DNA of 42,962 bases from a virus. The notes below the pieces were generated by a model, which was given only the letters and a program-made list of their open reading frames with translations, had not been told where the DNA came from and ran no database searches. How positions within the stretch are numbered: position 1 is the first letter of the stretch; every line of letters starts with the position of its first letter. Where the stretch lies: positions 1 through 42,962 of IMG/VR virus record IMGVR_UViG_3300034069_000448, one strand, 5' to 3'. This document shows, piece by piece, positions 751-16,488 of this stretch. A program made the position numbers and the translations under genes.

Positions 751-1160
751 CAACCGCTGATCTGACGCTTTGGCTATACGGCCTATGCTGCTGGGGCGCG
801 TCGCTGAACTTTCCGGCTTGGGCGCGGCTGCTGTTCCGCCAGATGAGCCCGGCGCGCTTGGTGCCGTGGCATCGCGACGTGCGCTTCATGAGCCGGCTAG
901 GTCTAACGATCCTCTCGTTCGGGATCGCCGGGCTGTCGGGCGCCCGGTTCTTCGGTGCGCTGTTCACGGGCACCACAATCGCTTTGCCGGGTGCTTGGGT
1001 GACCGTGTTCATCGCCTGCATGGCATGCGCCGAGCCTTTCTTCCTGCGCATCGACGAGGTCCACGCGATCGAGCGCGGCGGTAAGTCAATCGGTTGGCGA
1101 CTCTATTGGATCGGCGTCGTGACGGGAACGACGCTGCTTATCGTGATGAGGATGGCATGA
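747..1160 (+). CDS. Multi-pass membrane protein (holin candidate), 137 aa
   Basis: ATGA overlaps at both ends. Three to four hydrophobic helices (LTLWLYGLCCWGA, LGLTILSFGIAGL, ALPGAWVTVFIACMA, LYWIGVVTGTTLLIV). Confidence 0.7.
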   Translation: MTTADLTLWLYGLCCWGASLNFPAWARLLFRQMSPARLVPWHRDVRFMSRLGLTILSFGIAGLSGARFFGALFTGTTIALPGAWVTVFIACMACAEPFFLRIDEVHAIERGGKSIGWRLYWIGVVTGTTLLIVMRMA

Positions 1161-1768
1161 TGACCGACCAACGCACCGCCCTATTCGACGCGATCCGGCC
1201 GTTGATGCCGGACAAGCGGTTTCAGCCCGATCATGTGCAGGCAATCGACATGCTGGCGGACAAGCTTGGCTATCAGCGCCTCGACGCGGTGCCGACCAAA
1301 GCAAACGGCCCAACTATCCCCGACAGCTATTGGCCGATGCTCGCCAAGATCGAAAGCGGCGGGAACCCCATGGCGAAGGCGGGAACGTCGTCGGCGTCGG
1401 GCCTGTACCAGTTCATCCGGGCGACGTGGATCGGAGAAGGCGGCGCTTGGGGTAGCGACATGTCGAAGCCCTTTGGTGGGCTGAAGCCTACACCGGATGA
1501 ACAGACAGCACGTGCTAAAACGTTCACCGCCAAGAACGCGGTGGCGCTCCTGCGTGCCGGCATCCCAGTCAACAACGCCTCGCTCTACGCGGCCCACTTT
1601 GCCGGGGTAGGCACGGCTGCCAAGCTGATCGGCGCGGATGTGAAGGCACGGGCAGACCTGATCGCAGGAGAGGCCGCGACCAAGGCAAACGAGTCGATCC
1701 TTCGCGGTAAGACGGTCGGCGACTTCCTGTCGTGGCTTCAGCGGAAAACGGGAGCATGGGCGCGATGA
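1157..1768 (+). CDS. SLT-type lytic transglycosylase / endolysin candidate, 203 aa
   Basis: ATGA overlap start. Motif AKIESGGNP...SSASGLYQFIRATW matches the E-S...GLxQ...TW signature of soluble lytic transglycosylase domains. Confidence 0.75.
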   Translation: MMTDQRTALFDAIRPLMPDKRFQPDHVQAIDMLADKLGYQRLDAVPTKANGPTIPDSYWPMLAKIESGGNPMAKAGTSSASGLYQFIRATWIGEGGAWGSDMSKPFGGLKPTPDEQTARAKTFTAKNAVALLRAGIPVNNASLYAAHFAGVGTAAKLIGADVKARADLIAGEAATKANESILRGKTVGDFLSWLQRKTGAWAR

Positions 1769-2004: not shown

Positions 2005-2249
2005 CCGAACAAGCGCGCTGGGAAATTGGCTTACTCGCACTAGTGGCCCTTGCCGCTGCCTGCCTAGCGGGGTGGTCAATTCAGAAAAACGACGCGTCCG
2101 GTGCGGCTGCCTGGTCGGCGCTGCTCATGGCGATCATCAATACCGTCAAGGAAGCGCGTCAATCCCGCACCATTGACCGGATGCAAGAAGGATTGCAGCG
2201 ATCTGCGCCTACGCCTGAGACTGTCGACAAGACGACGGTGGAGGGGTGA
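2001..2249 (+). CDS. Small two-helix membrane protein (holin/antiholin-like), 82 aa
   Basis: GTG in a GTGA overlap. Hydrophobic helices IGLLALVALAAACLAGW and AAWSALLMAIINTV. Last gene of the coupled cassette. Confidence 0.6.
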   Translation: MTEQARWEIGLLALVALAAACLAGWSIQKNDASGAAAWSALLMAIINTVKEARQSRTIDRMQEGLQRSAPTPETVDKTTVEG

Positions 2250-2250
2250 T

Positions 2251-2276
2251 GCTGCGGGCCGGGCTTGATACCGGCT
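2251..2276 (+). repeat. Repeat A copy 1: gctgcgggccgggcttgataccggct (contains hairpin gccgg/ccggc)
   Basis: The identical 26-mer recurs at 2646..2671. Each copy starts within 2 nt of a stop codon. Confidence 0.9.
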
Positions 2277-2432
2277 ACCCCTGGTTGTTCGCCTCTACCT
2301 CAGACCGCCTGCTACTTCCCAGCGGAGCGACCGCTGATATCTCACAAGTTAGGTTCGGCTCGTTCCCTTGGTTGCTTTTCACCTAGTTCCGGACTTCAGA
2401 TCAAAGCAGGGGTGCTAACCGTCGAATAACTC

Positions 2433-2457
2433 GCGTGTCCATCCACGCCGCCGCAGC
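2433..2457 (+). repeat. Repeat B copy 1: gcgtgtccatccacgccgccgcagc (hairpin gcgtg/cacgc, then ccgcagc complementary to the repeat A 5' end)
   Basis: 24/25 identity with 2742..2766. ccgcagc can pair with gctgcgg at 2251..2257. Confidence 0.85.
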
Positions 2458-2481
2458 CCAACGATACTACGGAGAACCCGA

Positions 2482-2646
2482 ATGAAAATCAACCTCACTC
2501 GCCTCGCCAAATCCGCCGTCCGCGTCGTCAAGCAGAACCCCGACAAGGCGCTGATCGTCGCGTCCATGCTGGCGCCGGGGATTGTGGCTAAGGTCGCGTC
2601 CAAGGTGGTGCCGGTCGTGGTGGCGTTGGGGAAGCCTAAGCGGTAG
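2482..2646 (+). CDS. 54-aa strongly cationic amphipathic peptide (MKINLTRLAKSAVRVVKQNPDKALIVASMLAPGIVAKVASKVVPVVVALGKPKR)
   Basis: ATG is preceded by GGAGA at -11..-7. Composition is 8 K + 3 R against 1 D (net about +10). It is below the ORF-track length cutoff and is bracketed by repeats B and A. Confidence 0.5.
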   Translation: MKINLTRLAKSAVRVVKQNPDKALIVASMLAPGIVAKVASKVVPVVVALGKPKR

Positions 2647-2671
2647 CTGCGGGCCGGGCTTGATACCGGCT
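2646..2671 (+). repeat. Repeat A copy 2
   Basis: Identical to 2251..2276. It begins at the last base of the TAG stop of the 54-aa ORF. Confidence 0.9.
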
Positions 2672-2741
2672 TCTACCAGCGGGCGAAGTAGGCTGGTAGT
2701 CTATATGGTCCTTGCCTAATCGCAGTTGCCTCGCCGACAAA

Positions 2742-2766
2742 GCGTGTCCTTCCACGCCGCCGCAGC
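2742..2766 (+). repeat. Repeat B copy 2: gcgtgtccttccacgccgccgcagc
   Basis: One mismatch to copy 1, located in the hairpin loop. It closes a stem with 2646..2652. Confidence 0.85.
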
Positions 2767-2811
2767 ACATCGCGGCTAGCATAGTCTAGCGCGATTTGCT
2801 AGTGTTATAGG

Positions 2812-2895
2812 GCTGCGGCATGTAGCTCAGTTGCGTCTAGAGCGTCCGATGCGTCGGGAGGTATGTGGGTTCGATTCCCGCCTTGTCGCAGCACC
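2812..2895 (+). ncRNA. tRNA-like element / degenerate tRNA with canonical D-arm and T-arm, an 11-bp acceptor-type stem, and the anticodon arm replaced by a 5-bp hairpin with a UGCG tetraloop
   Basis: Hand fold:
- Acceptor-type stem: gctgcggcatg (2812-2822) pairs with cttgtcgcagc (2882-2892).
- D-arm: gctc-agttgcgtcta-gagc.
- Anticodon-arm position: tccga-tgcg-tcggg.
- T-arm: gtggg-ttcgatt-cccgc.
- An alternative register gives only a 3-bp anticodon stem with loop aTGCGtc (GCG, Arg). Confidence 0.55.
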
Positions 2896-2943
2896 TTAAG
2901 TCCGGTTCGCCGGCCGCCTGGGTTGATCGCCGGGTGACGTGAT

Positions 2944-2970
2944 GGGCGGAGTCGCTTGGTGTCTCCGCCC
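2944..2970 (+). terminator. GC-rich hairpin, candidate terminator for the lysis/tRNA-like transcript
   Basis: gggcggag-tcgcttggtgt-ctccgccc forms an 8-bp stem followed by tcaccttta. The T tract is weak. Confidence 0.35.
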
Positions 2971-3305
2971 TCACCTTTAGCCGCCGTTGTCCATAGCCGC
3001 CTCCCTTCCTCACTCCCTACCAGCATGTCACGGGTGGGCGGGGTTGTCAGCCCTGCACGCGTGGCAGGTAATGCAGCCGCCCGCATGGACTGCGCCTATA
3101 CCAGTGGAAACCGGGCTTGAGGGTGAACGCGCCGCCCCAATGCCAGCCATGCGACCACAGCAGCACACGAAACCAGCGCGGGAGACGCCGACGCCTCACG
3201 ACCGATCTCCGAGAAGGGCGCGGGCGACCAAGGTGGCGAGTGAGCCCGTGACCACCGGGTAGGAACAACGCCCGCCTCCGATGAACTCACTCGCCGCCAT
3301 GATCG

Positions 3306-6449: not shown

Positions 6450-6693
6450 CGGTTTGCAATCGCACCCGAAAGTGGCGGAAAACCGTGGCTGGAACGAAGC
6501 GTGAAGATAGAAAACTTGTGAGGACTTCCGCCACCTGAACGCGGATTTGCAGTCCTCTGCGTCACCACTCCGCCATCGGGCCATTTCAACGACTTAGCGG
6601 GAATTTTCGAACCAGTTTTCAGTCCGGTCCAAGGTGGGTTTGCAAACCCCCGCTTGTGTGGTGCCGGCCGAGTGCCCGCGAGCCCACCCACTG
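6450..6693. other. Candidate attP region next to the integrase 3' end
   Basis: The 244 nt are non-coding. They hold a tRNA-Cys-like 5' fragment (6543..6582, - strand), the palindrome gggtttgcaaaccc (6636..6649), and three TTTGCA motifs starting at 6453, 6546 and 6639. Confidence 0.45.
6543..6582 (-). pseudogene. Fragment resembling the 5' two-thirds of tRNA-Cys(GCA): acceptor 5' strand, D-arm and anticodon arm; no T-arm or 3' acceptor strand
   Basis: The minus strand reads GGCCCGA-TG-GCGGAGTGGTGACGC-A-GAGGA-CTGCAAA-TCC. Sequence downstream does not fold as a T-arm. Confidence 0.4.
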
Positions 6694-7683
6694 TCAACTG
6701 ACTTTCGCCATCGCAGCCGCGCTTTGCCGACGCGCCAACAGGTACTTCATGGCCATCTGATAGGTGCGGTGACCAAGCACGGCGGTGATCTCACCGACCG
6801 TGCAGCCGACCTCCTCCATCATGCCGGCCGCTGCATAGCGGAGCCCGTGAGGCGTCCGGTGCGGCATGGCCTCGATAGCCTCTACCGCGTCGCCGATCGC
6901 CTTCCGCATGGCGTTGGCGGTGTACGGCTGGCCGACTGCATTGCGGCAGATGCGGCCCTTGCGGATCGATACCGCGTCCAGCACCTCGCGCAGCCTCGGG
7001 TGGCAGGCGATCGACATGGACTCGCCGGTCTTGGACTGGCGGACGCGGATGTAGTCGCCCTGGTAGGCGGTCCACTGCATCATCGCCACGTCTTCGCCGC
7101 GCTGGCCCGTGTAGAGCATCAGCATGATCGGCAGGCGCAGGAACAACGGCCCTTCCGCAAGGAACAGCGCGATCTCTCGATCCGACCACGGCTCGATCGT
7201 CTCGGCGCGCACCTTAAGCGCTTTGAATTCGGCAGCCGGGTTGTGGCCCTTCTTCACCCGGCCGTCCTCCTGCCCCCACGAGTAGAGACGGCTGACCATC
7301 TGCTTGACCTTGTGTGCCTTGCGCGGGGTGGCGTCGAGGTCGTCTCGTACCGCCTTCACCATCTTGCCTGTGACCAGTCGGTAGGGCTCGTCACCAAGCT
7401 CTGCGATGATGATGTCGAGCGTGCGGTTATAGTCGGTCTGCGTCGGCGTCCGCAGGAGGCGAAACTCGGAACTTGCACGATAGGCGGCGACCAGCGCGGC
7501 AACGCTCGACTCGGCAGGTGCGGCGGCTTCCTTCTTCGCCGTCAGCTCCATCATTTCGCCGTAGCGCCGGTGGAACTCCGCATCCCCGGGCTTGCCGGGT
7601 AGGGCGACATTCACGCCAGCCCGCCGGAAACGCCAATAGCAGCCCTTCACGACGTACGTGTACGGCAGGTTAGCCACGACCAT
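6694..7683 (-). CDS. int: Tyrosine recombinase / phage integrase
   Basis: The C-terminal catalytic region has ...TGQRGEDV..., HGLRYAAAG and LGHRTYQMAMKYL (R..H-x-x-R..Y pattern). The start may be 7683 (MVVANLPYTYV) or 7743 (74-nt overlap with xis). Confidence 0.9.
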   Translation of the reverse strand: MVVANLPYTYVVKGCYWRFRRAGVNVALPGKPGDAEFHRRYGEMMELTAKKEAAAPAESSVAALVAAYRASSEFRLLRTPTQTDYNRTLDIIIAELGDEPYRLVTGKMVKAVRDDLDATPRKAHKVKQMVSRLYSWGQEDGRVKKGHNPAAEFKALKVRAETIEPWSDREIALFLAEGPLFLRLPIMLMLYTGQRGEDVAMMQWTAYQGDYIRVRQSKTGESMSIACHPRLREVLDAVSIRKGRICRNAVGQPYTANAMRKAIGDAVEAIEAMPHRTPHGLRYAAAGMMEEVGCTVGEITAVLGHRTYQMAMKYLLARRQSAAAMAKVS

Positions 7684-7930
7684 TCTTTCGGCGCTCCAGG
7701 AACCGCTTTTCGACGAGCGCAGCTTCCGCTTCTTCGTCGGCATCGTCCAGAGGCTGATCGGCTAGCCGGTCCGCCCAACGGTCCAGATCACGGATGTCGT
7801 ACAGCACGCGCCGGCCGACGCGCCGCGGATCGGGCCCGCGAGTTCGCAGCAGCGTCTTACCGATCGACAGGTATTCCGCCGCCTCAGGCTCGGCCAGGAG
7901 CCTGGGCCAGCGGGCGGCGGCTTGGGTCAC
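7670..7930 (-). CDS. xis: Excisionase / AlpA-family HTH DNA-binding protein, 86 aa
   Basis: LLAEPEAAEYLSIGKTLLRT...GRRVLYDIRDLDRWA matches the HTH_17/AlpA pattern. GTGA overlap start. The gene lies directly upstream of int. Confidence 0.75.
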   Translation of the reverse strand: MTQAAARWPRLLAEPEAAEYLSIGKTLLRTRGPDPRRVGRRVLYDIRDLDRWADRLADQPLDDADEEAEAALVEKRFLERRKNGRG

Positions 7931-15558: not shown

Positions 15559-16140
15559 TTAAACAGGAGAACCCTTCCATACGACGCGGCCGACGATCAC
15601 GAAGTCCGTCGCGCTAACGAGGAATTCCTTATGCTCTGGGTTAGTCGACACCGGCTCAAAACGCGCGGGCAGCTTCTGATAGCGTTTGACCGTCACGCCG
15701 AACTCGGCATTCTGAAGCATATAGCATTTGCCGGGGGAGAGGACCTGGTCGTCGGGGTCGATTGCGATCCAGCCGCCGTCCTCAATCAGTAGGTTCATGC
15801 TATCACCGGCAACCTCGACCGCAAAAGCGCGCTCGCCTGCTACGTGTGATGGAAGAACCATACGCCCAATCGGCAACTCGACAGCCTCTCTCCATGTACC
15901 AGCGGCCGTCAGTCCTATAATGGGGATCGCCCGCGTCGCACTGTGCTGGACAGGTACGATCCTTAATTCATGATAGATGCGCGCAGCTTCGTCAACTTTG
16001 ACATTCCTGTCACCTTTCAGGATTTTATCGAGCGCGCTAACGTGTGTTAACCCCACTGCGGCTGCGAATTCCTCGCGCTTCCGCTTCTGGGCCTTCATGG
16101 ACGATCGAACCAGATCGGGGTCAAAGATGAAATCCGACAT
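15559..16140 (-). CDS. CI-like repressor: N-terminal HTH plus C-terminal S24 (LexA-type) peptidase domain, 193 aa
   Basis: EFAAAVGLTHVSALDKILKG is the HTH. AFAVEVAGDSMN...KRY is the S24 Ser/Lys autocleavage signature. The gene is divergent from the cro-like gene. Start taken at the MSDFIF ATG. Confidence 0.88.
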   Translation of the reverse strand: MSDFIFDPDLVRSSMKAQKRKREEFAAAVGLTHVSALDKILKGDRNVKVDEAARIYHELRIVPVQHSATRAIPIIGLTAAGTWREAVELPIGRMVLPSHVAGERAFAVEVAGDSMNLLIEDGGWIAIDPDDQVLSPGKCYMLQNAEFGVTVKRYQKLPARFEPVSTNPEHKEFLVSATDFVIVGRVVWKGSPV

Positions 16141-16200
16141 GCGCCGCTTATGACTCGCGCCTTGAAAAGCGCACCCTAGCTTTTTCGGCAAGGGTGGGGC

Positions 16201-16236
16201 TTGCAAAACTAACCGATAATCGGTAGCTATGCTGGC
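16201..16236 (+). promoter_or_regulatory. Candidate PR promoter with operator OR
   Basis: TTGCAA (16201..16206), a 17-nt spacer, then TAGCTA (16224..16229). The operator taaccgataatcggta (16210..16225) matches the reverse complement of OL1 at 14/16 positions. The ATG at 16237 lies about 8 nt after the -10 element with no SD sequence. Confidence 0.5.
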
Positions 16237-16488
16237 ATGAGCGTAGTTCATACCATCATCGATGCGTTCGGCGGGGTCAATGCTACCGCGACCGCGACAG
16301 GCACCCCGCAGCAGACGGTTAGCGAGTGGCGCACTCGCAACCCGCCGGAGATTCCACCTTGGCGTCGTTCGTCGCTGATCGACGCGGCCCAACGCGAGAA
16401 GGTCAAGCTACCGGCCAATGCGCTCGCGTATCTTGCGTCGACTGAGCGGACCAGAAAGTCGCCGGTTGTTGAGGCGATGGCGTCGTGA
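16237..16488 (+). CDS. Cro-like / YdaS-type small DNA-binding protein, 83 aa
   Basis: Divergent from the repressor. GTPQQTVSEWRTR is an HTH-like segment. Confidence 0.7.
   Translation: MSVVHTIIDAFGGVNATATATGTPQQTVSEWRTRNPPEIPPWRRSSLIDAAQREKVKLPANALAYLASTERTRKSPVVEAMAS

What the first reader, a model, noticed from the sequence alone, without database searches (positions are those of the whole stretch)
2251..2895. Array of three stem-closed RNA modules sharing the same GCTGCGG...C(C/T)GCAGC closing helix
Three consecutive non-coding segments downstream of the lysis cassette each begin with gctgcgg and end with its complement:
- 2251..2457, about 207 nt.
- 2646..2766, about 121 nt.
- 2812..2892, 81 nt.

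The first two modules share two elements:
- An identical 26-nt 5' element with the hairpin gccgg/ccggc.
- A 25-nt 3' element with the hairpin gcgtg/cacgc.

Their interiors are unrelated but contain strong local hairpins: cagcgg-agcga-ccgctg at 2320..2336, and ctaccagc-(11 nt)-gctggtag at 2673..2699.

The third module is a tRNA-like cloverleaf, and modules 2 and 3 share the 3' end CGCAGCAC. This looks like a family of tRNA-derived structured RNAs: processing signals, RNase P/E substrates, or a new phage ncRNA class. It does not look like ordinary intergenic spacer. Each module starts within 2 nt of a stop codon, which suggests they punctuate a polycistronic transcript.
Basis: seen in the sequence. 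Interest (0 to 1): 0.72.

Follow-up and report, generated by a model that had tools for sequence, protein, structure and literature searches.

The report
Phage tRNA-like small RNA genes
Two of the three "modules" are genes, read from the opposite strand, for a large and so far unannotated family of phage small RNAs that copy the top half of a tRNA around a swappable variable insert; the third is a different RNA, a tRNA-Phe-like gene without an anticodon.

Summary
The repeats are real. Modules 1 (2251-2457) and 2 (2646-2766) share 50 of 52 end positions but have unrelated interiors.

They are not signals in the lysis mRNA. They are separate genes on the minus strand. On that strand each has a 7-bp closing helix, a 2-nt linker, a D-like hairpin (loop GAWGGA), a variable insert, and a T-like arm (GCCGG-UAUCAAGC-CCGGC) that abuts the 3' strand of the closing helix. 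This is tRNA connectivity without an anticodon arm.

All three helices covary, and the closing helix has at least 49 sequence variants. Four signals fix the strand:
- G.U versus A.C pair asymmetry.
- A sigma-70-type promoter placed so that transcription starts at the first helix base.
- GNRA loops (35 on this strand versus 3 on the other).
- Downstream tRNA genes in the same orientation.

There is no Rfam or literature match. Module 3 (2812-2892, + strand) is a tRNA-Phe-like cloverleaf with a UGCG tetraloop in place of the anticodon loop, and it is not a family member.

Function is unknown. My best guess is a tRNA-like scaffold, matured by host tRNA enzymes, that carries an exchangeable RNA cassette.

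The parts
2251..2457 (-). Module 1: a tRNA-like small RNA gene of 207 nt. The RNA 5' end is at 2457 and the 3' end at 2251. In + coordinates: 3' strand of the closing helix 2251-2257; T-like arm 2258-2275; variable insert of about 155 nt, 2277-2432; D-like hairpin 2433-2448; linker 2449-2450; 5' strand of the closing helix 2451-2457.
   Evidence: Covariance model R1 scores 54.2 bits, E 7.6e-10, on the minus strand. The minimum-free-energy fold shows the closing helix, the D-like hairpin and the T-like hairpin. Repeats.
2464..2492 (-). Promoter of module 1: -35 TTGATT (2492-2487), a 17-nt spacer, -10 TAGTAT (2469-2464), then 6 nt to +1 = G at 2457. It overlaps the ribosome-binding site (GGAG, 2471-2474) and the start codon (2482) of the small + strand ORF.
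   Evidence: Read. The same geometry is seen across the family: the -10 hexamer ends at -7 in 43 of 70 elements, with T-12 in 44/70, A-11 in 51/70, T-7 in 42/70 and TTG at -35..-33. The generic scanner did not call it, because it matches 8 of 12 positions against a threshold of 9.
2646..2766 (-). Module 2: a tRNA-like small RNA gene of 121 nt. The RNA 5' end is at 2766 and the 3' end at 2646. In + coordinates: 3' strand of the closing helix 2646-2652; T-like arm 2653-2670; variable insert of about 69 nt, 2672-2741; D-like hairpin 2742-2757; linker 2758-2759; 5' strand of the closing helix 2760-2766.
   Evidence: R1 scores 84.8 bits, E 2.5e-16, on the minus strand. Fold: (z -2.08).
2773..2801 (-). 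Weak putative promoter of module 2: -35 TAGCAA (2801-2796) and an extended -10, TGcTAGCCG (2781-2773). It lies back to back with the module 3 promoter in the 45-bp spacer.
   Evidence: Read in the register defined. It matches the consensus poorly: best scan score 6.5. This part is inferred.
2812..2892 (+). Module 3: an anticodon-less tRNA-like gene with an 11-bp acceptor helix (one U.U mismatch), a D arm, a 5-bp 'anticodon' stem capped by a UGCG tetraloop, and a canonical T arm (GUGGG-UUCGAUU-CCCGC). It is not a member of the module 1/2 family.
   Evidence: Rfam tRNA match at 2816-2889 on the + strand, 37.2 bits. ARAGORN is negative. The cloverleaf costs -29.5 kcal/mol against an MFE of -31.9. 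The first 19 nt are identical to a phage tRNA-Phe(GAA) gene plus its 4-nt leader in L106. R1 gives no hit.
2797..2805 (+). Putative extended -10 of module 3: TGcTAGTGT, then 6 nt (tatagg) to G2812. It mirrors the module 1 arrangement (TAGTAT-cgttgg-G).
   Evidence: Read. Inverted repeat I2, 2450-2469 / 2800-2819, is 80% complementary. This part is inferred.
2482..2646 (+). Context: a small ORF of 54 aa, hydrophobic and basic, lying between the two RNA genes. Its stop codon overlaps the 3' end of module 2. It is probably the last gene of the late/lysis operon.
   Evidence: ORF list. tblastn finds homologues just upstream of family elements in L105, L025, L035 and L052. No PHROG family matched.

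Best explanation
**What it is (well supported).**
- Modules 1 and 2 are paralogous genes of a large, unannotated family of small RNAs in temperate phages of Alphaproteobacteria. They are transcribed from the window's minus strand, towards the end of the lysis/late operon.
- Each RNA starts at the first base of a 7-bp terminal helix. It then has, in order:
  - a 2-nt linker (C-R);
  - a 5-bp D-like hairpin with loop GAWGGA;
  - a hypervariable insert of 29-172 nt (155 and 69 nt here);
  - N-A;
  - a 5-bp T-like arm with an 8-nt loop, N-N-U-C-R-A-N-N;
  - immediately afterwards, the 3' strand of the terminal helix.
- This is the connectivity of a tRNA whose anticodon arm has been replaced.
- Module 3 is a separate + strand gene for a tRNA-Phe-derived cloverleaf. 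A UNCG tetraloop replaces its anticodon loop.

**How it most likely works (inferred).**
- The terminal helix stacked on the T arm, together with a D-loop GG / T-loop UC 'elbow', makes the RNA look like the top half of a tRNA.
- Host tRNA enzymes would then define and protect its ends. RNase P would act where a leader or an upstream tRNA exists. 3' trimming would remove the trailer, since no CCA is encoded and a terminator is rare. CCA addition is possible.
- The chassis would thus be a natural 'tRNA scaffold' that makes a stable RNA out of whatever insert it carries.
- The insert is built from hairpins that are often GNRA-capped. It is exchanged as a cassette between otherwise identical chassis, which suggests the insert is the working, specificity-bearing part.
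- The RNA cannot decode. It is probably made in lysogens from its own sigma-70-type promoter, as morons are.
For: **Spread.**
- The exact 25-nt ends occur in 45 and 58 IMG/VR contigs.
94 model matches at E<=0.01 fell in about 90 of 100 of those new loci.
- There are one or two copies per genome in Acetobacter, Komagataeibacter, Roseomonas, Sphingomonas, Novosphingobium and Rhizobiaceae.
- It is present and unannotated in Caulobacter phage DMCA and in Komagataeibacter phages phiKX1 and phiKX2.

**Structure.**
- 99.8% and 99.5% of cells form pairs. All five D-stem pairs, 3 of 5 T-stem pairs and 6 of 7 terminal-helix pairs show double changes. 0 of 500 shuffles reached the observed covariation score.
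- When the D hairpin was located by its motif alone, the 7-mer upstream paired fully with the 7-mer after the T arm in 82 of 97 elements. These had 49 different sequences.

**Strand and transcription.**
- G.U versus A.C is 19 to 5.
- The promoter register is fixed relative to the first helix base.
- GNRA hairpins number 35 on this strand and 3 on the other.
- tRNA genes lie 5-7 nt downstream, in the same orientation, in L074, L092 and L095.
- In L140 two copies sit 15 nt apart with no room for a promoter between them, so they must be cut apart.
- DMCA carries a U2.G71 wobble pair on this strand.

**It is not a decoder.**
- A 5-bp stem / 7-nt loop / 5-bp stem (5/7/5) hairpin follows the D arm in 4 of 149 inserts, against 2.9 expected by chance.

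**Cassette behaviour.**
- Modules 1 and 2 differ at 2 of 52 chassis positions, yet their inserts are unrelated.
- L013 and L031 share the promoter, the chassis and 115 nt downstream at 100% identity in otherwise unrelated phages, but their inserts differ.

**No known family.**
Against: - There are no expression data, so transcription, the RNA ends and CCA addition are all inferred.
- The generic promoter scanner did not call any of the three promoters in the window. Module 2's promoter is weak.
- The T loop has 8 nt, not 7. Position 8 is C, not U. The elbow cannot be tested by covariation, because the loop bases involved never vary.
- The inserts fold no better than shuffled sequence (mean z -0.03). 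They could therefore be tolerated filler rather than cargo.
- No target complementarity was found in the window.
- No conserved neighbouring protein was found in 160 contexts.
- Only 8 of 70 elements have a terminator within 100 nt. Read-through antisense to the late genes may be part of the function, or the whole of it.
- The family was collected with exact-match seeds. The apparent invariance of whichever part served as the seed is partly an effect of how the set was gathered.
Confidence: 0.6

Rival explanations
1. The RNA gene is mainly the structured 5' end of an antisense transcript. Its promoter fires into the 3' end of the late/lysis operon. It would damp leaky lysis-gene expression, or block read-through, by transcriptional interference or antisense pairing. 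The tRNA-like fold would only stabilise or process that transcript.
For: - The element converges on the last late gene. Its 3' end lies 0-3 nt from that gene's stop codon in about 21-27 of 69 cases.
- Endolysin is the commonest neighbour, mostly downstream and convergent.
- Only 8 of 70 elements have a terminator within 100 nt.
- In the window, read-through from module 2 would be antisense to the small ORF, and read-through from module 1 would be antisense to the ORF at 2001-2249.
Against: - DMCA, phiKX1 and L088 have a clear terminator hairpin 12-15 nt after the element.
- In DMCA the element lies between a transposase and an integrase, not next to lysis genes.
- In six loci it lies upstream of a terminase-like gene in the same orientation.
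- In three loci a tRNA follows it directly.
- Interference alone would not explain the near-invariant D and T loops.
Confidence: 0.12
2. It is an immunity-type antisense RNA like P1/P7 c4 or P4 CI. Those have a terminal helix processed by RNase P, and variable loops that pair with targets in the same phage to set heteroimmune specificity.
For: - The architecture is similar: a terminal stem enclosing hairpins with variable sequence.
- The insert behaves as a cassette, as expected for a specificity determinant.
- The host is a temperate phage with an integrase and an S24-type repressor.
Against: - There is no Rfam C4 match on either strand at E<=10.
- The window holds no complementarity beyond chance. 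The best exact match is 12 nt, E 0.31.
- No ORF lies downstream in the same transcript for the RNA to control. It faces the ends of convergent genes or a tRNA.
- c4 and CI have no D/T elbow mimic (this point is from my own knowledge).
Confidence: 0.08
3. One reading: plus-strand structures within the lysis/late polycistronic mRNA that act as processing or stability signals (RNase P or RNase E substrates) and punctuate the transcript.
For: - The modules follow stop codons of plus-strand ORFs.
- The complement of a helix is also a helix, so the plus strand folds similarly.
Against: - On the plus strand the non-Watson-Crick positions are A.C mismatches: 19 against 5.
- GNRA loops number 3 on this strand and 35 on the other.
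- The promoter signal is in register only on the other strand.
- tRNA-like connectivity exists only on the minus strand: a 2-nt linker after the 5' strand and a T arm abutting the 3' strand.
- Adjacent downstream tRNA genes are in the same orientation as the minus-strand reading.
Confidence: 0.04
4. It is a DNA-level element: a REP/MITE-type repeat, an integron attC-like or att-type recombination site, or a decayed tRNA gene or integration scar.
For: - It has conserved ends with short inverted termini and a variable middle.
- It often lies near an integrase or the prophage end.
- Three inserts carry tRNA T-arm fragments. One has 22 nt nearly identical to the 3' end of a tRNA-Ser gene.
- Folded single-stranded DNA would also tolerate G.T better than A.C.
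Against: - There are one or two copies per genome, not many.
- No partial duplicated copies occur, as att sites would leave. The only partial model matches are L058 and L039, which are cut off by locus ends, plus one weak partial hit in L010.
- A promoter lies in fixed register and GNRA loops are enriched, which points to an RNA.
- It sits in operon-like arrangements with tRNA genes.
- Strong purifying selection on the loops together with compensatory changes in all the stems is the opposite of decay.
Confidence: 0.05

Closest known systems
tRNA (Rfam RF00005), in particular phage-encoded tRNA genes
   Same: - A 7-bp terminal helix, a 2-nt linker and a D-like hairpin with GG in its loop.
- A 5-bp T-like arm with U-C-R-A in its loop that abuts the 3' strand of the terminal helix.
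- Own promoter, or a place in a tRNA operon.
- Module 3 passes the tRNA model.
   Different: - Modules 1 and 2 have no anticodon arm. They have an 8-nt T loop, C at position 8, a 5-bp D stem with a 6-nt loop, and a 29-172 nt insert.
- They do not match the tRNA model even at E<=10.
- Module 3 has a 4-nt UGCG loop in place of the anticodon loop, and an 11-bp acceptor helix.
Engineered 'tRNA scaffold' for recombinant RNA (Ponchon and Dardel; from my own knowledge), and the tRNA-like parts of murine gammaherpesvirus 68 TMER transcripts
   Same: A tRNA-like chassis whose anticodon arm is replaced by, or linked to, an unrelated RNA. The chassis recruits tRNA-processing enzymes and makes the RNA stable. 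This is the best match for how it would work.
   Different: One is man-made and the other is eukaryotic and viral (RNA polymerase III, tRNase Z). No natural bacterial or phage counterpart with exchangeable inserts is known to me. Nothing here shows that the insert is released or functional.
P1/P7 c4 and P4 CI antisense RNAs (Rfam C4 family)
   Same: A phage-encoded small RNA closed by a terminal helix and processed like a tRNA, with variable internal loops that set specificity.
   Different: There is no Rfam match, no cis target and no complementarity. c4 and CI do not mimic the D/T elbow.
Bacteriophage T4 stable RNAs species 1 and 2 (rnaC, rnaD) in the tRNA gene cluster (from my own knowledge)
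   Same: Non-decoding stable RNAs encoded among phage tRNA genes, with tRNA-like ends, matured by the tRNA machinery. Their function is still unknown.
   Different: No sequence relationship was tested here, because no model or sequence was available in the tools. T4 is virulent and enterobacterial. A hypervariable cassette is not known for these RNAs.
tmRNA tRNA-like domain, and the bacterial Y RNA YrlA tRNA-like module
   Same: An acceptor/T-arm mimic joined to a non-tRNA body.
   Different: - ARAGORN finds no tmRNA. There are no tag ORF, no pseudoknots and no G3:U70 pair.
- There is no YrlA or Y RNA match in Rfam.
- In Y RNAs the ends lie in the Ro-binding stem, not in the acceptor mimic.

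Membership tests
tRNA (RF00005) | Scores at or above the Rfam gathering threshold | tested here: not met
   Modules 1 and 2 give no tRNA match, even at E<=10, on either strand. Module 3 does meet this: 37.2 bits against 29.
tRNA (RF00005) | Anticodon arm: 5-bp stem and 7-nt loop, following the D arm | tested here: not met
   Only 4 of 149 non-redundant inserts have a 5-bp stem / 7-nt loop / 5-bp stem (5/7/5) hairpin at that place, against 2.9 expected by chance. Module 3 has a 4-nt UGCG loop. ARAGORN finds nothing in the window.
tRNA (RF00005) | 7-bp acceptor helix, 2-nt linker to the D arm, and a T arm abutting the 3' acceptor strand | tested here: met
   This holds on the minus strand for modules 1 and 2 and across the family.
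tRNA (RF00005) | 7-nt T loop (T-Psi-C-R-A-N-N), and U8 | tested here: not met
   The loop has 8 nt (9 in a few members), with U-C-R-A at loop positions 3-6. Position 8 is C in all 127 elements examined.
tmRNA | Detected by ARAGORN; has a tag reading frame and pseudoknots | tested here: not met
   ARAGORN finds 0 tRNA or tmRNA genes in the window. Rfam gives no match.
C4 / CI antisense RNA (Rfam C4) | Match to the covariance model | tested here: not met
   No match at E<=10 in 2100-3100 on either strand.
C4 / CI antisense RNA (Rfam C4) | Loops complementary to target sites in the same phage | tested here: inconclusive
   A short-word BLAST of both inserts against the window found nothing beyond chance: at most 12 nt exact, E 0.31. 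Seeds of 7-10 nt cannot be excluded. A duplex-energy scan timed out.
REP / MITE-type dispersed repeat | Many copies dispersed in a host chromosome | tested here: not met
   20 hits in 185,579 species genomes, one per genome and two in one genome. There are two copies in the window.
Phage attachment site (tRNA-type att) | Partial duplicated copy of the 3' part at prophage ends; the core lies next to the integrase | tested here: inconclusive
   Apart from matches cut off at a locus end (L039, L058), the only partial copy the model found in about 200 loci is one weak hit in L010. The element is often within a few kb of an integrase. The true attP of this phage was not located.
Bacterial Y RNA (YrlA) | Match to the Rfam model; adjacent Ro60 (rsr) gene | tested here: not met
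   No Rfam match. No recurrent neighbouring protein other than endolysin in 160 contexts. Ro60 was not searched for specifically.
The new family itself (chassis model R1) | Terminal helix, then C-R, then D-like hairpin (GAWGGA), then insert, then N-A, then T-like arm (N-N-U-C-R-A-N-N), then terminal helix | tested here: met
   Modules 1 and 2 score 54.2 and 84.8 bits. Module 3 gives no match.

The most novel reading that the evidence does not exclude
Temperate alphaproteobacterial phages may carry a natural 'tRNA scaffold' system. A near-invariant tRNA-top-half chassis is made and stabilised by host tRNA enzymes. It displays a hypervariable RNA cassette that is swapped between phages by recombination at the conserved ends. 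The cassette would act as a specificity determinant, for example in competition or exclusion between phages, in counter-defence, or in host-specific regulation. Phages with two or three such genes, as here, would carry several specificities. The anticodon-less tRNA-Phe mimic (module 3) would belong to the same strategy of non-decoding tRNA look-alikes.
Probability: 0.2. Interest if true: 0.85.

Novelty: new variant of a known kind. Interest (0 to 1): 0.7.

Why it matters
Phage genomes are usually annotated for proteins and canonical tRNAs only. This element is missed by both approaches.

- **It is widespread and unannotated.** It is more conserved at the nucleotide level than the phage proteins around it. 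It is present in hundreds of viral contigs and in phages that can be grown in the laboratory. It is nevertheless absent from Rfam and from the annotation of those phages.
- **It poses a concrete biological question.** It combines a strongly constrained tRNA-top-half mimic with a freely exchanged insert. Known phage tRNA-like RNAs do not share this design. Which conserved host factor reads the T arm and D loop, and what does the cassette specify?
- **It matters for annotation.** Intergenic 'spacers' next to lysis cassettes, integrases and tRNA clusters in alphaproteobacterial prophages can now be annotated. The chassis is a convenient marker of a mobile, moron-like module.
- **It may be useful as a tool.** If the scaffold idea is right, it is a ready-made natural chassis for expressing stable RNAs in Alphaproteobacteria.

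Tried and rejected
Rejected on G.U/A.C asymmetry, promoter register, GNRA strand bias and tRNA co-orientation.
- **Invariant closing helix as an identity element, for example for an aminoacyl-tRNA synthetase.** I first thought GCUGCGG/CCGCAGC was invariant. I then realised that both seed patterns contained one strand of it. A scan seeded on the T arm alone showed at least 49 variants, so this idea was dropped.
- **Position near contig ends as evidence for an att site.** Dropped because locus lengths reflect how the data are stored in chunks, not where contigs end.
- **Self-targets of the inserts.** BLAST within the window found nothing beyond chance. BLAST of all inserts against all loci found only other family members and tRNA T arms. 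A duplex-energy scan exceeded the time limit.
- **Thermodynamic stability of the inserts.** No signal.
- **Close relatives of this phage's own inserts.**
  - A 27-mer from the module 2 insert is absent from IMG/VR.
  - A 20-mer hit five metagenome contigs, but these are unrelated ORF ends (...YQRAK stop), so they are chance matches.
  - The window region has no match in the GenBank phage collection at E 1e-5.
- **A conserved partner protein near the element.** None found. The largest neighbour cluster, endolysin, occurs in 16 of 160 contexts.
- **Literature.** No paper holds the sequences or describes such a family. The paper on acetic acid bacterium phages that reports phiKX1 and phiKX2 did not surface it in a term search for att sites and tRNA genes.
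- **Module 3 as a family member.** Rejected.
Full report
**1. The observation**

- The 26-mer GCTGCGGGCCGGGCTTGATACCGGCT occurs exactly at 2251-2276 and 2646-2671.
- The 25-mer GCGTGTCCWTCCACGCCGCCGCAGC occurs at 2433-2457 and 2742-2766.
- Neither is found anywhere else in the 42,962 bases, even with 3 mismatches allowed, and none is expected in shuffles.

Modules 1 and 2 close with GCTGCGG/CCGCAGC in their minimum-free-energy folds. Module 3 (2812-2892) matches the Rfam tRNA model at 2816-2889 on the + strand, with 37.2 bits against a gathering score of 29. ARAGORN calls no tRNA or tmRNA in the window. No other Rfam family matches 2100-3100 on either strand, even at E<=10.

Folding energies are unremarkable, with z between -0.6 and -2.1. 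The case for function therefore rests on comparison with other sequences, not on thermodynamics.

**2. The elements belong to a large family**

- The two 25-nt ends occur exactly in 45 and 58 IMG/VR contigs. Where both are present, they flank 29-180 nt of unrelated sequence.
- A scan of one genome from each of 185,579 species found the 5' end only 20 times. There was one copy per genome and two in one Sphingomonas. The hosts were Acetobacter, Komagataeibacter, Novacetimonas, Roseomonas, Tanticharoenia, Ameyamaea, Sphingomonas, Novosphingobium and a Rhizobiaceae MAG, plus three MAGs assigned to Planctomycetaceae, Alcaligenaceae and Spartobacteria, outside the Alphaproteobacteria. This is the opposite of a dispersed REP or MITE element.
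A covariance model then gave 94 matches at E<=0.01, falling in about 90 of 100 of those new loci.
- Cultured phages carry the element too: Caulobacter phage DMCA (PQ480021, 25556-25686), Komagataeibacter phages phiKX1 and phiKX2, and a phage deposited as Pseudanabaena phage Pan3. Nothing is annotated under the match in any of them.
- The window is itself a temperate phage. It has an integrase at 6694-7743 (-), an S24 (LexA/CI-type) repressor at 15559-16392 (-), and a transglycosylase-type endolysin at 1157-1768 (+).

**3. The strand**

- **(a) Wobble pairs.** In the two hairpins and the closing helix, the non-Watson-Crick positions are G.U on the window's minus strand and A.C on its plus strand. 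The A1 alignment has 8 G.U cells against one unpaired cell. The closing helix has 19 G.U against 5 A.C. DMCA has a U2.G71 pair on this strand.
- **(b) Promoter.** Upstream on that strand, 70 distinct elements show a sigma-70-type promoter in fixed register.
  - The best -10 hexamer ends at -7 in 43 of 70.
  - T-12 occurs in 44/70, A-11 in 51/70 and T-7 in 42/70.
  - T-15/G-14 (an extended -10) occur in 34 and 41 of 70.
  - T, T and G occur at -35, -34 and -33 in 40, 32 and 34 of 70.
  - Transcription would therefore start at the first base of the closing helix.
  - For module 1 this reads TTGATT (2492-2487), 17 nt, TAGTAT (2469-2464), cgttgg, G2457.
  - The generic scanner missed it, because it matches 8 of 12 positions against a threshold of 9. 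I count that as a caveat.
- **(c) GNRA loops.** Tetraloops closing stems of at least 4 bp occur 35 times in 149 non-redundant inserts on this strand and 3 times on the other. CGAAAG is the most enriched hexamer, at 18 against 2.
- **(d) Neighbouring tRNA genes.** Seven of 70 elements have a tRNA gene within 400 nt.
  - All four downstream tRNAs are in the same orientation, three of them only 5-7 nt away (tRNA-Asn, -Met and -Trp).
  - None is convergent.
  - In phiKX1 a tRNA-Met lies about 120 nt upstream in the same orientation.
  - In L140 two copies are 15 nt apart, with no room for a promoter between them.
- **(e) Connectivity.** Only on this strand is the layout tRNA-like.

**4. Anatomy (RNA sense)**

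The order is:
- 5' strand of the terminal helix, 7 nt;
- a C-R linker;
- a 5-bp stem with loop GAWGGA;
- the insert;
- N-A;
- a 5-bp stem with an 8-nt loop, usually UAUCAAGC, in which U-C-R-A at loop positions 3-6 is essentially invariant;
- 3' strand of the terminal helix, 7 nt, with no spacer before it.

The 7 + 5 bp coaxial stack, the 2-nt linker, the GG in the first loop and the UC(R)A in the second loop are the hallmarks of the tRNA acceptor/T-arm minihelix and of the D/T elbow.

Covariation is strong.
- On 38 distinct chassis, 99.8% of cells pair. All five D-stem pairs and three of five T-stem pairs show double changes. 0 of 500 shuffles reached the observed covariation score, and sliding the partner column drops pairing to 31-40%.
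- On 64 chassis seeded on the T arm alone, six of seven terminal-helix pairs show double changes, with up to six pair types per position.
- In a test that does not presuppose pairing, I located the D hairpin by its motif alone. The 7-mer upstream was fully complementary to the 7-mer after the T arm in 82 of 97 elements, with 49 different sequences. About 10 of 97 were complementary when partners were permuted.
- I had first taken the terminal helix to be invariant. That was an artefact of seeding the searches with one of its strands. GCUGCGG is one variant, roughly a tenth of the family.

These RNAs are not tRNAs.
- Only 4 of 149 inserts begin with an anticodon-arm-like hairpin of 5-bp stem, 7-nt loop and 5-bp stem (5/7/5), against 2.9 expected by chance.
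- The T loop has 8 nt, and position 8 is C in all elements examined.
- The tRNA model does not match them.

**5. The inserts**

- 149 non-redundant inserts span 29-172 nt, with a median of 81.
- Only six pairs among about 68 inserts are alignable.
- As a set they fold no better than shuffles, with mean z -0.03.
- The 8 nt before the T arm are more often the 3' side of a helix than in shuffles: 4.9 against 4.0 of 8, p about 0.001.
- GNRA caps are common.
- Three inserts contain a canonical T arm (GGTTCGARTC) in sense orientation, against 0.09 expected. The one in L053 is 22 nt nearly identical to the 3' end of a phage tRNA-Ser gene.

The most telling feature is cassette behaviour.
- Modules 1 and 2 differ at 2 of 52 chassis positions, yet their inserts (155 and 69 nt) show no similarity: local score 17 against a null of 13.9 +/- 2.1.
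- L013 and L031 are identical from about 45 nt upstream of the RNA start, through the chassis, to about 115 nt downstream. The phages are otherwise unrelated, and the inserts differ.
- Gradual divergence cannot randomise the insert while leaving 34 freely covarying stem positions untouched. Either the inserts are replaced, or the ends are homogenised by recombination.
- The L013/L031 pair also shows that promoter, RNA gene and a short tail move as a unit between phages, like a moron.

**6. Context**

- The commonest neighbour is an endolysin, in 16 of 160 distinct contexts. It mostly lies downstream and convergent, as in the window.
- Other positions are:
  - upstream of a terminase-like gene (six loci);
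  - between a transposase and the integrase in DMCA;
  - about 1.8 kb from a probable integrase next to tRNA-Arg in a Sphingomonas prophage.
- So the gene sits at module junctions and near prophage ends. No protein family accompanies it consistently, which points to a host partner or to none.
- The 3' flank has a loose A-W-C consensus and no encoded CCA. Only 8 of 70 elements have a recognisable terminator within 100 nt, although DMCA, phiKX1 and L088 have a clear one 12-15 nt downstream. 3' ends must therefore usually be made by processing.
- In 21-27 of 69 cases the stop codon of the convergent gene lies 0-3 nt from the RNA's 3' end.

**7. Module 3**

- Module 3 is a + strand cloverleaf with:
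  - an 11-bp acceptor helix with one U.U mismatch;
  - a D arm whose loop lacks GG;
  - a 5-bp stem capped by UGCG, a UNCG-type tetraloop, where the anticodon loop should be;
  - a canonical T arm.
- Its first 19 nt are identical to a tRNA-Phe(GAA) gene plus its 4-nt GCTG leader, in a phage tRNA cluster in L106.
- It has a mirror-image extended -10: TGcTAGTGT, 6 nt, then G2812.
- Model R1 does not match it.
- A neat stem-plus-tetraloop replacement looks selected rather than decayed. This phage therefore seems to encode three non-decoding tRNA look-alikes of two kinds.
- I cannot explain why module 3 shares GCUGCGG with modules 1 and 2. I note that paired copies in other genomes also share their terminal helix: L025/L105, L095, L051 and L155.

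**8. Mechanism**

Shown by computation:
- independent minus-strand genes;
- a tRNA-type chassis under strong selection;
- no decoding capacity;
- cassette-like inserts;
- co-organisation with tRNA genes.

Inferred:
- the elbow forms;
- RNase P, 3' trimming and possibly CCA addition mature and protect the RNA;
- the chassis acts as a natural tRNA scaffold for the insert;
- the gene is expressed in lysogens.

What the RNA does is not known. The options, in order of my preference, are:
- a stable carrier for a specificity-bearing RNA cassette;
- a decoy for a conserved host or defence factor that reads the tRNA elbow or minihelix;
- the structured 5' end of an antisense transcript against the late operon;
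- a c4/CI-like immunity RNA.

**9. Comparison and novelty**

- In how it would work, it most resembles engineered tRNA scaffolds and the tRNA-like parts of gammaherpesvirus TMERs.
- Among phage RNAs it recalls the T4 species 1 and 2 RNAs and c4/CI.
- It fails the tested membership criteria for tRNA, tmRNA, C4, YrlA and REP/MITE elements.
- No paper in the library holds the sequences or describes such a family. A term search of the paper that reported phiKX1 and phiKX2 for att sites and tRNA genes did not surface the element.
- I rate it a new variant of a known kind, phage tRNA-like small RNA, with interest 0.7.

Noticed in passing
window 2482-2646 (+): A small ORF of 54 aa, hydrophobic and basic, with a good ribosome-binding site (GGAG, 2471-2474). 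Homologues lie just upstream of family elements in L105, L025, L035 and L052, and no PHROG family matched. The module 1 promoter on the other strand overlaps its ribosome-binding site and start codon. Read-through from module 2 would be antisense to it.
   Followed up: partly
window 2812-2892 (+): A tRNA-Phe-like gene whose anticodon loop is replaced by a UGCG tetraloop and whose acceptor helix is extended to 11 bp. This looks like a deliberate non-decoding tRNA mimic, not a decayed pseudogene.
   Followed up: partly
window 2251-2892; L025/L105, L095, L051, L155: Copies within one genome share the same, or nearly the same, terminal helix, although the family has at least 49 variants. Module 3, on the other strand and of another kind, also starts GCUGCGG. 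The L106 tRNA-Phe gene has the same 19 nt, including a GCUG leader. This is unexplained.
   Followed up: partly
window 2944-2970 (+): A GC-rich hairpin, GGGCGGAG-(11 nt)-CTCCGCCC, followed by TCACCTTT, about 50 nt after module 3. It is a possible terminator for module 3 or for the late operon, but the terminator scan did not call it. The 2893-3305 gap has no credible ORF and could hold attP.
   Followed up: no
L013 about 6570-6687 and L031 (downstream of the element in RNA sense): A stretch of about 115 nt after the RNA gene is 100% identical between two otherwise unrelated phages. It folds better than shuffles (z -2.4) and has no Rfam match above noise. It may be a second small RNA or a processed tail that travels with the gene.
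   Followed up: partly
L053 1346-1489, L083 5327-5519, L101 7611-7778: The inserts of these family members contain a canonical tRNA T arm (GGTTCGARTC) in sense orientation. The insert in L053 looks like a nested tRNA-like unit, with 22 nt nearly identical to the 3' end of a phage tRNA-Ser gene.
   Followed up: partly
L140 5232-5545: Two family members lie in tandem, 15 nt apart, with no room for a second promoter. This implies co-transcription and endonucleolytic separation, as in tRNA operons.
   Followed up: no
L107 (Caulobacter phage DMCA, PQ480021, 25556-25686): In a cultured temperate Caulobacter phage, the element lies between a transposase gene and the 3' end of the integrase gene. It has a TATAAA -10 element and a terminator hairpin, and the record does not annotate it. 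This is a convenient experimental system.
   Followed up: partly
L220-L224 (metagenome contigs): The 20-mer CTACCAGCGGGCGAAGTAGG from the module 2 insert matches the 3' ends of unrelated ORFs (...YQRAK stop) in soil metagenomes. These are chance matches and not relatives.
   Followed up: yes
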